From the human T2T-CHM13v2.0 reference genome, Homo sapiens: DNA of 64,000 bases. The translations under genes and the position numbers were made by a program. Where the stretch lies: NCBI RefSeq assembly GCF_009914755.1, contig NC_060932.1; one strand, 5' to 3'. Every line of letters starts with the position of its first letter. The first letter of the stretch is position 1. This document shows positions 18,981 through 20,597 of this stretch, one piece after another. Under the pieces are notes generated by a model, which searched no databases, had not been told where the DNA came from, and saw nothing but the letters and a program-made list of their open reading frames with translations.

Positions 18981-19004
18981 GGTAGTTACTGTCCTTGATA
19001 CGTA

Positions 19005-19488
19005 TGCTAACCTTAAGAGATTCAGAAAATATGATTAAGTACAGAGTTTATTTAAGCCACAAACTTGAGAATGGCCACCTGGAAGCATTGATTGGAGCTG
19101 CCCTGAATATACACTCCGATTAGCAGCAGTTACAAATGAATGTTTTTCTTTTTTGGCAGAAACAGGGTCTAGCTATGCTCCCCAGGCTGGTCTTAAACTC
19201 CTGCCCTCAAGTGATCATCCTACCTCGTCCTCCCAAAGTGCTGGGATTCCGGCCTACAAGTGAGTTAAGAAAAAATGAGAGGCAATTCCTAAACTGTTTA
19301 TCAAAAATTTACATTAAAATAACATAAGCTATTGACTGACTAAACGCTGTCCTTTATATCACAAATTCAGGAATAAGATTTGGGTTGAGACATGGGTGAG
19401 GGGCGGCACTGAAGTCCAATACTCAGGTCTCTGCGTCCTGCATACCTCATGTAGCTCTCACTACTCTGAGCTTTTTTTCCCTTTCTCG
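19005..19488 (-). mobile_element. ERV1 MER4-group solo LTR (MER49/MER93/MER39-like) with an internal FLAM (~19142-19254), overlapping the COX6C exon 2 acceptor
   Basis: The minus strand begins (C/T)GAGAAAG..AAAGCTCAGAG..GAGCTACATGAGGTATGCA, has AATAAA at 19047-19052 and ends ...GGTTAGCA. Flanks cgta/ggta form a degenerate 4-bp TSD. Confidence 0.72.
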
Positions 19489-20597
19489 GGTAAAATAATA
19501 AAAGAAAAACTCAGAAAAGATATCAAAAGGAATTCTCATGCATAGTACATTTTACTACCTAGAGAGGCACAGCACGACAGTGGATGGATTCCTCCCACAA
19601 AGCCTAAGCTGTCTCTTGGCTTAGCCTGTTTCATCTTCCCCCCGCCCCCCATATACTGAGCGACCACCCTAAATAAACGCGACAAACTGCGGCACACTAG
19701 TAATGGACGAGCAAAGGCAACAAAAATCTTTCCAACAACAAGAAAAATAAGCAGTAGCTCCGCATTGGTAATTAACGATTGCAAACCCATTTATGCAACA
19801 CTTTCTCTTCTAAAAATTTTCTGTCCACTCGTTAAACCTTCGCGACAACCCTGTCAGATCATGAGGCAGGTGTTTTCCACGGTCACACGGTATACCATTA
19901 AAACCTGGACGGGAACGCGGCAAATACCATGAGGGCCCAAATTCCCTAACTGCTCCTTTGCCCAGCCTCACCTAAAGACCTAAGGGGCCTAAAAACTTTT
20001 GCGTCCCTGCTGGCCTTCAGCTAACGCGGCCGGGGGTAGGATGGGAAGCCGTGGGGCAAGGGAGGTTGCAGGAAGCCCATCCTTCCCCTCCTGCGGCAGG
20101 TACGGTGACCCTCCTCCAGTTTTCCAGCTCTAATTTAAAACGCTGCCACACAGCGAGCGACGCTGCCAGCTGCTTCGCCTACACTAACCCTTGCGCCTCA
20201 CGACCAGCTGCATTAGAAACCACCACCCCTTTTCTCACGGGAGAAACACCGGGGCCAGATAGGTCAAATGACCTCACCAAGGTCACAATGGCTGTGAAAA
20301 AGCGCAGCGGGTACCAGCCCCGGGCCAGCTCACTCCGAAGCCAGCTGGGTTCTCGAGGGTCCCGCAGCCCACCCGGCTTCGGTGGGGCCGTCGCAACCCA
20401 CCCCGGTCCGTGGTCCGCCCGCCGCCCTCCCTCAGGCCGCAGCGGAAGCGTGAGAGAGTAGATGCGGGAGAGGCCTGAAGCTGCACCACGGCGGAGACAC
20501 ACAGTCACGACTAAATCCGAGGCAGAGAGAAAGCGGGAGGGTGCCGTTGTGACAACCCGCAGTGTCGGGGTAGGGATGCAAAAGGGACCGGACTCAC

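What the first reader, a model, noticed from the sequence alone, without database searches (positions are those of the whole stretch)
18993..19535. COX6C exon 2 splice acceptor appears to be donated by an ERV1 solo LTR that displaced the ancestral polypyrimidine tract
Seen: an LTR-like element on the COX6C sense strand spans 19488->19005, with a degenerate 4-bp TSD (ggta 19489-92 / cgta 19001-04). Its 3' terminus (...tctcttaag|GTTAGCA) contains the acceptor AG and the first 7 exon bases. Directly upstream of the LTR lies an orphan pyrimidine tract (minus strand ttttctgagtttttcttttattatttt, ~19493-19520). Removing the LTR rejoins that tract to TATCAAG|GACAGTAACTACCATG, an AG 18 nt further into the exon (18994/18993). 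Inference: the LTR landed between the ancestral tract and its AG, 24 nt from the ATG, and its own end was exapted as the 3' splice site of an essential OXPHOS gene, lengthening the 5' UTR by 18 nt. My unverified recollection is that the mouse mRNA reads ...GTTGAG-GACA..CTACCATG, which fits this model.
Basis: partly seen in the sequence, partly recalled or inferred. Interest (0 to 1): 0.75.

Follow-up and report, generated by a model that had tools for sequence, protein, structure and literature searches.

The report
Retroviral LTR supplies COX6C splice acceptor
A remnant of an ancient retrovirus that landed just in front of the first coding exon of the human respiratory-chain gene COX6C now provides the splice site used by every annotated COX6C message; this is a clean example of a kind of borrowing that is already known.

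Summary
Window 19488->19005 (COX6C sense strand) is a solo LTR of a repeat family with hundreds of copies. An Alu-like monomer interrupts it, and a 4-bp target duplication flanks it. Copies of the family share the window's bases up to 19005 and not beyond. So the acceptor AG (19013-19012) and the first 7 exon bases lie inside the LTR.

Of 36 COX6C retrocopies, 31 join exon 1 to the 18-nt leader. Two begin inside the LTR at about 19116, so the LTR once also acted as a promoter. Predicted proteins that read through the 5'UTR carry the six leader residues in macaque, squirrel monkey and capuchin. The same residues are missing in naked mole-rat, kangaroo rat and a fruit bat.

The element is class I (ERV1-like): 4-bp duplications, about 425 nt, and a primer-binding site that best fits tRNA-Arg. 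I could not give it a Dfam/Repbase name. It is older than the catarrhine-platyrrhine ancestor and about 0.13 substitutions per site per lineage, roughly 60-90 million years. LTR-borne splice sites are a known kind, so interest is moderate.

The parts
19005..19488 (-). Solo LTR of a class I (ERV1-like) endogenous retrovirus, in COX6C sense orientation, including a nested Alu-like insert
   Evidence: repeat family, both pieces match the same loci; 5' end; 3' end by column shares
19255..19488 (-). 5' piece of the LTR (U3 side)
19140..19254 (-). Nested Alu-like monomer with A-rich tail. A direct repeat of about 9 nt flanks it (19263-19255 and 19139-19131)
   Evidence: other LTR copies run straight from about 19255 to about 19145; 43 other Alu-like matches in the window at 71-87% identity. 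Repeat bounds read by eye
19005..19139 (-). 3' piece of the LTR. It holds the inferred transcription start, the AATAAA, the working pyrimidine tract and the acceptor
19114..19118 (-). Inferred former transcription start inside the LTR
   Evidence: Two independent retrocopies (L148, L150) have different flanks. L148 has its own 16-of-18 nt duplication. They begin at about 19118 and about 19115
19047..19052 (-). AATAAA of the LTR on the gene's sense strand
   Evidence: Read
19012..19013 (-). Acceptor AG of COX6C exon 2, inside the LTR
   Evidence: RefSeq exon 18867-19011 in 2 of 2 mRNAs. AG present at the same place in 9 of 13 family copies
18994..19011 (-). 18-nt leader added to the 5'UTR: 7 nt of LTR end, 4 nt of target duplication, 7 nt of former intron
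19001..19004 (-). 3' copy of the 4-bp target duplication
19489..19492 (-). 5' copy of the 4-bp target duplication
18994..18995 (-). Older acceptor AG, now inside exon 2
   Evidence: L039 joins exon 1 to 18993. Rodent and bat protein models read the same junction
19493..19520 (-). Pyrimidine tract left upstream of the LTR, the likely tract of the older acceptor
   Evidence: 23 of 28 pyrimidines. Such windows are 273 of 15816 in the gene
18867..19011 (-). COX6C exon 2 (coding from 18980 downward)
   Evidence: RefSeq table given with the finding

Best explanation
A class I retrovirus integrated in COX6C intron 1, in sense orientation, 11 nt upstream of the old exon 2 boundary. It duplicated 4 bp and later collapsed to a solo LTR of about 425 nt.

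The insertion moved the old pyrimidine tract, and presumably the old branch site, several hundred bases away from the old AG (18995-18994).

The end of the LTR already carried a pyrimidine-rich stretch followed by AG; the AG is a family feature. The spliceosome took that first AG (19013-19012). Exon 2 therefore now starts 18 nt earlier: 7 nt of LTR, 4 nt of duplication and 7 nt of former intron. The reading frame and the bases next to the ATG are unchanged.

The old AG stayed usable at a low level or for a time. The LTR also fired as a promoter at about 19116 at some period.

Shown: the LTR bounds, the duplication, the junctions in annotated mRNAs and in retrocopies, and the presence or absence of the leader in other species' protein models.

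Inferred: the order of events, the branch site, and that species without the leader also lack the LTR.
For: - LTR bounds and family.
- Duplications: among 11 copies with both ends located, 3 have an exact 4-bp duplication, 2 match 3 of 4, and none matches over 5 or 6 bp. The window's own duplication was once exact (27 of 33 retrocopies).
- True retroviral LTR: some copies have a shared purine-rich tract just upstream (L003, L013/L014, L044). Others have a shared primer-binding-site-like stretch 3 nt downstream (L006, L047 and 9 more).
- Retrocopies: 31 of 36 join exon 1 to the leader, 1 (L039) joins exon 1 to 18993, 2 start in the LTR, and 2 are uninformative.
- Species: read in the CDS frame, the human 5'UTR gives eight exon-1 residues, six leader residues and four more before Met. 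Macaca thibetana (P0122), Saimiri (P0121) and Cebus (P0106) have the six. Heterocephalus (P0059), Dipodomys (P0072), Pteropus (P0021) and L039 lack exactly those six.
- Timing: only 1 of 31 leader-bearing retrocopies has the residue shared by all three anthropoids at codon 4, and 1 of 31 at codon 23. The LTR acceptor was therefore in use before those changes.
Against: - No orthologous genomic DNA of another species could be read. The cross-species evidence rests on conceptual N-terminal extensions of predicted proteins. The two rodent proteins are labelled 'COX6C-like' and are probably retrocopies.
- L039 is not the oldest retrocopy. Its private divergence is 0.120 +/- 0.016, and 8 leader-bearing retrocopies are equal or higher. 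Its trunk position is mid-range. Human data alone cannot say whether L039 predates the LTR or records a minor isoform.
- 6 of 11 copies show no 4-bp duplication. Two of these adjoin inner provirus sequence; in the other four the ends or flanks are uncertain.
- The window copy departs from its relatives. Its first base differs. Two of its last 12 bases are shared with only 1 and 0 of 13 copies. It lacks five bases just 5' of the acceptor that 11 copies (by eye) and both LTR-started retrocopies carry. Its two LTR pieces add up to about 370 nt against 408-454 in other copies.
- RefSeq's mask table does not flag the stretch.
- Artiodactyl and whale models read another frame, with 21 nt between exon 1 and the ATG. 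The old acceptor's exact place may therefore have differed between lineages.
Confidence: 0.85

Rival explanations
1. The LTR and its leader are much older (before the split of primates, rodents and bats). Rodents and bats later shifted to the downstream AG or lost the element.
For: Clock estimates are loose. Mean pairwise K2P among 8 copies is 0.255, about 0.13 per lineage. With slow recalled rates this reaches about 85-90 million years. The oldest leader-bearing retrocopies have 0.14-0.165.
Against: It needs parallel loss or shift in at least two or three lineages (two rodents and a bat). L039 shows the leaderless junction in the human lineage too. No non-primate protein model with the six leader residues was found: 0 of the 8 hits, and none among the 12 N-terminally extended models that I read of the 120 proteins listed.
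Confidence: 0.07
2. The LTR donates today's acceptor, but the acceptor it replaced was not 18995-18994. It might have been a site about 8 nt further upstream, as artiodactyl models hint, or the CAG at 18991-18989.
For: Whale, alpaca and muntjac models have 21 nt between exon 1 and the ATG. Their first exon-2 residues resemble a translation of the bases just 5' of the old AG. A CAG lies at 18991-18989.
Against: The lineages nearest to primates that I could see (two rodents), a bat and human L039 all join exon 1 to the base matching 18993. No retrocopy joins exon 1 to 18988: 0 of the 32 in which the exon-1 junction can be read.
Confidence: 0.07
3. The match of the exon's first 7 bases to the LTR end is chance. 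The element really ends near 19017, where most local alignments stop.
For: About half of the scored matches stop at query position 125-126 (window 19018-19017).
Against: The stop comes from five bases that the window lacks. Beyond them, 10-13 of 13 copies share the window's base at 10 of 12 positions, and only 1-6 of 13 do outside. The 4-bp duplication starts right after 19005. Two retrocopies carry the LTR end, the duplication and the exon as one piece.
Confidence: 0.01

Closest known systems
LTR elements that partly overlap an exon because a splice site inside the LTR is used (Piriyapongsa et al. 2007, PMC2008291; passages read)
   Same: An exon boundary lies inside an LTR and extends an original exon. 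The paper counts 586 of 1395 LTR-exon associations of this type, 513 from ERV1. It says constitutive LTR-derived exons are mostly in 5'UTRs.
   Different: Here the overlap is only 7 nt. The site is the sole annotated acceptor of the first coding exon of a housekeeping gene, and the insertion split the old tract from its AG. I could not see the paper's supplementary tables, so COX6C may or may not be listed there.
IL22RA2 exon from an MSTB2 LTR (same paper, passages read)
   Same: A primate LTR in an intron supplies splice signals.
   Different: That case makes a new alternative coding exon after a point change in the donor. Here an existing exon's acceptor is replaced, and the AG is a feature of the family (9 of 13 copies).
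LTRs used as alternative promoters of host genes (recalled general knowledge; no call)
   Same: Two retrocopies start inside this LTR and continue into spliced COX6C exons.
   Different: No annotated present-day transcript starts there. An Alu-like insert now lies about 25 nt upstream of the inferred start.
Alu exonization through the pyrimidine-rich antisense strand (recalled general knowledge; no call)
   Same: A repeat brings a ready-made pyrimidine tract plus AG.
   Different: That mechanism usually creates alternative cassette exons. Here the site is constitutive and comes from the sense strand of an LTR end.

Membership tests
Retroviral LTR (any class) | TG...CA termini | tested here: met
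   The 3' CA is present at 19006-19005, and 11 of 13 copies share each base. The 5' TG is seen in 16 of 36 distinct loci. The window's own first base differs.
Retroviral LTR (any class) | Copies that adjoin a polypurine tract (3' LTR) or a primer-binding site (5' LTR) | tested here: met
   A purine-rich tract lies next to the LTR in L003, L013/L014 and L044. A PBS-like 18-mer lies 3 nt after the LTR in 11 copies.
Class I / ERV1-like | 4-bp target duplication | tested here: met
   The window matches 3 of 4 and was once 4 of 4. Among 11 copies with both ends located, 3 are exact, 2 match 3 of 4, 6 match 2 or fewer, and 0 match over 5 or 6 bp. The rule that 4 bp marks class I is recalled.
Class I / ERV1-like | Gamma/epsilon-type inner genes | not tested
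ERVs named by a tRNA-Arg primer-binding site | PBS complementary to the 3' end of tRNA-Arg | tested here: inconclusive
   Summed matches over 11 copies (of 198): Arg-CCG2 157, Arg-CCG1 and Arg-TCG3 155, Trp-CCA2 141, median of 65 genes 110. Single copies reach 17 of 18. Only 65 of 252 numbered tRNA genes were compared. All Arg and Trp isodecoders were included but only one gene for each other anticodon, which favours Arg and Trp.
HERV-K (HML-2) / LTR5 | 6-bp duplication, LTR near 1 kb, tRNA-Lys PBS (recalled) | tested here: not met
   4-bp duplications and copies of 402-455 nt (one of 867 nt with an insert). Lys genes are not among the 12 best PBS matches printed.
ERVL / MaLR | 5-bp target duplication (recalled) | tested here: not met
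   0 of 11 copies match over 5 bp.
Named Dfam/Repbase LTR family | Match to a library model | not testable with these tools
   No repeat library is available here. RefSeq's table has no family names. Papers gave no name.
Repeat-derived constitutive 3' splice site | The exon boundary lies inside the repeat and all annotated transcripts use it | tested here: met
   Exon 2 starts at 19011 in 2 of 2 RefSeq mRNAs. The LTR ends at 19005.

The most novel reading that the evidence does not exclude
The LTR did more than lengthen the 5'UTR. On the primate stem it rewired COX6C by taking over splicing of the first coding exon and by serving as a second promoter active in the germ line, as the two LTR-started retrocopies suggest. 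This change of control opened the period in which COX6C, like other oxidase subunits, began to evolve fast in anthropoids. The review PMC9314418 (passages read) notes accelerated replacement in the human lineage.
Probability: 0.07. Interest if true: 0.65.

Novelty: new member of a known kind. Interest (0 to 1): 0.45.

Why it matters
COX6C is a single-copy subunit of cytochrome c oxidase, and every annotated message depends on this acceptor. A signal essential for a housekeeping gene is thus wholly of viral origin in monkeys, apes and humans.

The case is unusually well documented from one genome. The gene's own retrocopies preserve three stages: the older junction, the LTR-borne junction, and transcripts started by the LTR. 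It also shows that a sense-oriented LTR with its own AATAAA, 35 nt before an acceptor, can be tolerated in an essential gene.

A practical point follows. Variants in 19005-19040 lie in 'repeat' sequence but sit in a working splice site.

Tried and rejected
- Ordering L039 against the leader-bearing retrocopies. I tried NJ terminal branches, shared trunk states and private divergence. Homoplasy and short length leave it unresolved. L039 is among the three longest branches but mid-range.
- PBS typing with two copies tied Arg and Trp. Eleven copies favour Arg but do not settle it.
- Rfam scan of 18800-19700 gave one weak chance hit only (snoR1, 18.7 bits against a gathering score of 49).
- Literature, first search: COX6C / LTR / splice acceptor, listing only, nothing relevant.
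- Literature, second search: COX6C + LTR. 20 papers hold both words. By title and abstract start none concerns this site, and I read none of them.
- Literature, third search: COX6C with exonization / transposable element / endogenous retrovirus / ERV1. None of the 20 listed papers holds COX6C.
- Literature, fourth search: subunit VIc cDNA and pseudogene papers. This led to the review PMC9314418 (passages read), which gives 4 exons and 3 introns and says nothing on the LTR.
- Supplements are closed. Tables of LTR-exon overlaps (PMC2008291) or of TE-gene chimeras (PMC12999487, listing only) may name COX6C.
- I did not run a third protein search for lemur or tarsier read-through models. None of the lemur, loris or tarsier proteins listed is longer than 78 aa.
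- I did not survey whether other copies of the family supply exon boundaries elsewhere.

Full report
WHAT IS THERE.

Read on the COX6C sense (minus) strand, the stretch 19488->19005 is a copy of an interspersed repeat. The 3' piece (19142->19005) drew 349 first-look candidates in the human reference. Of these 40 were scored: 39 non-self matches at 76-86% identity. The 5' piece drew 172 candidates, 40 scored. In several loci the two pieces lie side by side. The 115 bases between them in the window (19254-19140) are therefore a later insert. That insert matches 43 other Alu-like places in the window at 71-87% identity. It ends in an A-rich tail.

RefSeq's table of masked repeats of 100 bases or more lists nothing between 18527 and 22000. 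The public mask does not flag the element, but the table also omits the Alu-like piece.

WHERE IT ENDS.

Most local alignments stop at 19018-19017. This is because the window lacks five bases that other copies carry at that point (11 copies by eye). I anchored each copy on its own end. Of 36 loci examined, the 3' end could be located in 13.

- Inside the element (19016-19005), 10-13 of the 13 share the window's base at 10 of the 12 positions.
- Outside it (19004-18993), only 1-6 of 13 do.
- 9 of 13 copies have AG where the window has its acceptor AG.

At the other end, 16 of 36 distinct loci begin with TG at the position matching 19488-19487 and have unrelated sequence upstream. The window's first base differs from theirs.

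The four bases outside each end (19492-19489 and 19004-19001) match at 3 of 4. At 19001 the gene has G, while 27 of 33 COX6C retrocopies have C, 3 have G and 3 have T. The duplication was therefore exact when those retrocopies were made.

WHAT KIND OF ELEMENT.

Other copies are 402-455 nt long; one is 867 nt and carries an insert. In 11 copies both ends could be located. Of these, 3 have an exact 4-bp duplication, 2 match 3 of 4, and 6 match 2 or fewer. Two of those six adjoin inner provirus sequence. None matches over 5 or 6 bp.

Some copies have a common purine-rich tract just upstream, so they are 3' LTRs. Eleven copies have a common 18-base stretch 3 nt downstream, so they are 5' LTRs. Compared with the 3' ends of 65 human tRNA genes, that stretch fits tRNA-Arg best. 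Summed matches of 198 are Arg-CCG2 157 and Arg-CCG1/TCG3 155, against Trp 141 and a median of 65 genes of 110. Single copies reach 17 of 18. The comparison included all Arg and Trp isodecoders but only one gene per other anticodon, so I call it a lean toward Arg, not a proof.

Together this marks a true retroviral LTR of class I (ERV1-like in RepeatMasker's terms; the link between 4 bp and class I is recalled). It is not of the HML-2/LTR5 kind and not ERVL/MaLR. A Dfam/Repbase name needs a repeat library or the inner genes. The former is not available here and the latter is not mine to use.

THE GENE'S OWN FOSSIL RECORD.

COX6C has many processed pseudogenes, and each one freezes an mRNA. I examined 36:

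- 22 from a search with exon 2;
- 5 RefSeq-named ones that search missed;
- 9 more from a search with an old pseudogene as query.

The results were as follows.

- 31 join exon 1 to the 18-nt leader at the present junction. One of them has a 9-nt gap over the junction and one has a degenerate leader.
- One, L039 (chr4, unannotated, in a CHIC2 intron), joins exon 1 directly to the base matching 18993. It lacks exactly the 18 nt.
- Two, L148 (chr13) and L150 (chr20), have no exon 1. They begin inside the LTR at about 19118 and about 19115. They then run through the LTR end, the duplication and the leader into exons 2-4 without introns. Their flanks are unrelated, and L148 has its own 16-of-18 nt duplication.
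- Two are uninformative (L130, L163).

Two independent copies with the same start point to a transcription start in the LTR. They do not look like random 5' truncation of an intron-retaining message.

At the two LTR-end positions where the window differs from nearly all family copies (1 of 13 and 0 of 13), most retrocopies that align there also differ from today's gene (13 of 16 and 12 of 16). By eye they agree with the family. Today's leader has thus drifted from the LTR end it came from.

OTHER SPECIES.

No other genome could be read, but some predicted proteins start upstream and translate the 5'UTR. In the CDS frame the human 5'UTR reads eight exon-1 residues, six leader residues, then four residues and Met.

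- COX6C of Macaca thibetana and of Saimiri, and a COX6C-like protein of Cebus, have the six leader residues in place.
- COX6C-like proteins of Heterocephalus and Dipodomys, COX6C isoform X1 of Pteropus, and L039 read from the same exon-1 residues straight into the residues next to Met.
- Whale, alpaca and muntjac models use another frame, with 21 nt between exon 1 and the ATG. This hints that their acceptor lies a few bases further upstream (protein-only inference).
- A search aimed at the leader-coded stretch found 8 proteins, all anthropoid. None of the lemur, loris or tarsier proteins listed is longer than 78 aa.

The leader is therefore a derived feature of at least monkeys and apes. The junction at 18993 is the one seen outside primates.

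AGE.

Mean pairwise K2P among 8 full copies is 0.255 (28 pairs), about 0.13 per lineage. The window's two pieces, compared apart, give 0.22 and 0.215 to those copies, but local alignment flatters these figures.

Leader-bearing retrocopies have NJ terminal branches up to 0.151 and private divergence up to 0.165. The insertion is thus at least as old as the oldest detectable retrocopies.

Only 1 of 31 leader-bearing retrocopies has the anthropoid-shared residue at codon 4, and 1 of 31 at codon 23. The LTR acceptor was working before those stem-anthropoid changes. A macaque protein record is 88% identical to the frame of COX6CP6, one of the younger of the bulk.

With recalled neutral rates of 1.5-2.2 x 10^-9 per site per year, 0.13 gives roughly 60-85 million years. 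The phylogenetic bracket is before the catarrhine-platyrrhine ancestor and, if absence of the leader means absence of the LTR, after the split from rodents and bats.

HOW IT WORKS.

The integration site lies 11 nt upstream of the old exon boundary. It sits between a pyrimidine tract (19520-19493; 23 of 28 pyrimidines, a density reached by 1.7% of windows in the gene) and the old AG. An insertion of about 425 nt separates any old branch site and tract from that AG.

The last 25 bases before the new AG are 17 of 25 pyrimidines. A branch-site-like TTAAT lies 23 nt upstream of the new AG (by eye, inference). The LTR end thus brings a complete acceptor, and its AG is the first one downstream.

The leader holds no ATG, and the bases next to the start codon are untouched. 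The protein is therefore unaffected.

Whether L039 records the message before the insertion or a minor isoform after it is open. It has one of the three longest NJ branches. However, 8 leader-bearing copies have equal or higher private divergence. I lean to a minor or transitional isoform (about 0.6), over a pre-insertion fossil (about 0.3) or a later 18-nt deletion between the short repeats at the two AGs (about 0.1).

COMPARISON AND VERDICT.

LTRs that partly overlap exons through an internal splice site are common: 586 of 1395 LTR-exon associations, 513 from ERV1 (PMC2008291, passages). This is a new, well-documented member of that kind, not a new kind.

I found no paper linking COX6C to an LTR. 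Supplements that might list it are closed. Interest is moderate. The appeal lies in a constitutive, wholly LTR-derived acceptor in an essential gene, and in the three-stage record kept by its retrocopies.

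Noticed in passing
L148 (G000:C13:44483725-44484086) and L150 (G000:C20:47272541-47272911); window 19114-19118: Two independent COX6C retrocopies start inside the LTR and carry its last 110 nt or so in front of spliced exons 2-4. 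This points to former promoter activity of this solo LTR.
   Followed up: yes
L039 (G000:C4:57563817-57564212, in a CHIC2 intron): An unannotated COX6C retrocopy lacks exactly the 18-nt leader. It is the only one of 36 with the junction seen in rodent and bat protein models.
   Followed up: yes
L024 (COX6CP3), L027 (COX6CP9), L029 (COX6CP6): Three processed pseudogenes keep an unbroken 75-codon frame. A macaque protein record (P0001) is 88% identical to the COX6CP6 frame. I did not test whether any of them is expressed or under constraint.
   Followed up: no
L032, L034, L036, L037, L039-L043, L146, L148-L150, L153, L155, L156, L163, L164: Eighteen COX6C retrocopies carry no COX6CP name in the RefSeq gene table (one search list). 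The last nine were compared with the list of COX6CP names only.
   Followed up: partly
window 19140-19254: An Alu-like single monomer with an A-rich tail is nested in the LTR. It lies about 25 nt upstream of the inferred LTR transcription start and may have separated that start from the upstream part of the LTR.
   Followed up: partly
window 19047-19052: The LTR's AATAAA lies on the gene's sense strand, 35 nt before a constitutive acceptor, yet annotated messages read through it.
   Followed up: no
proteins P0006, P0015, P0083 (whale, alpaca, muntjac): N-terminally extended COX6C models read exon 1 in another frame and have 21 nt between exon 1 and the ATG. Their acceptor appears to lie about 8 nt upstream of the one used in rodents and the bat.
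   Followed up: no
window 19462-19547 (-): Weak Rfam hit to snoR1 (18.7 bits against a gathering score of 49, E 0.44). I take it for chance.
   Followed up: no
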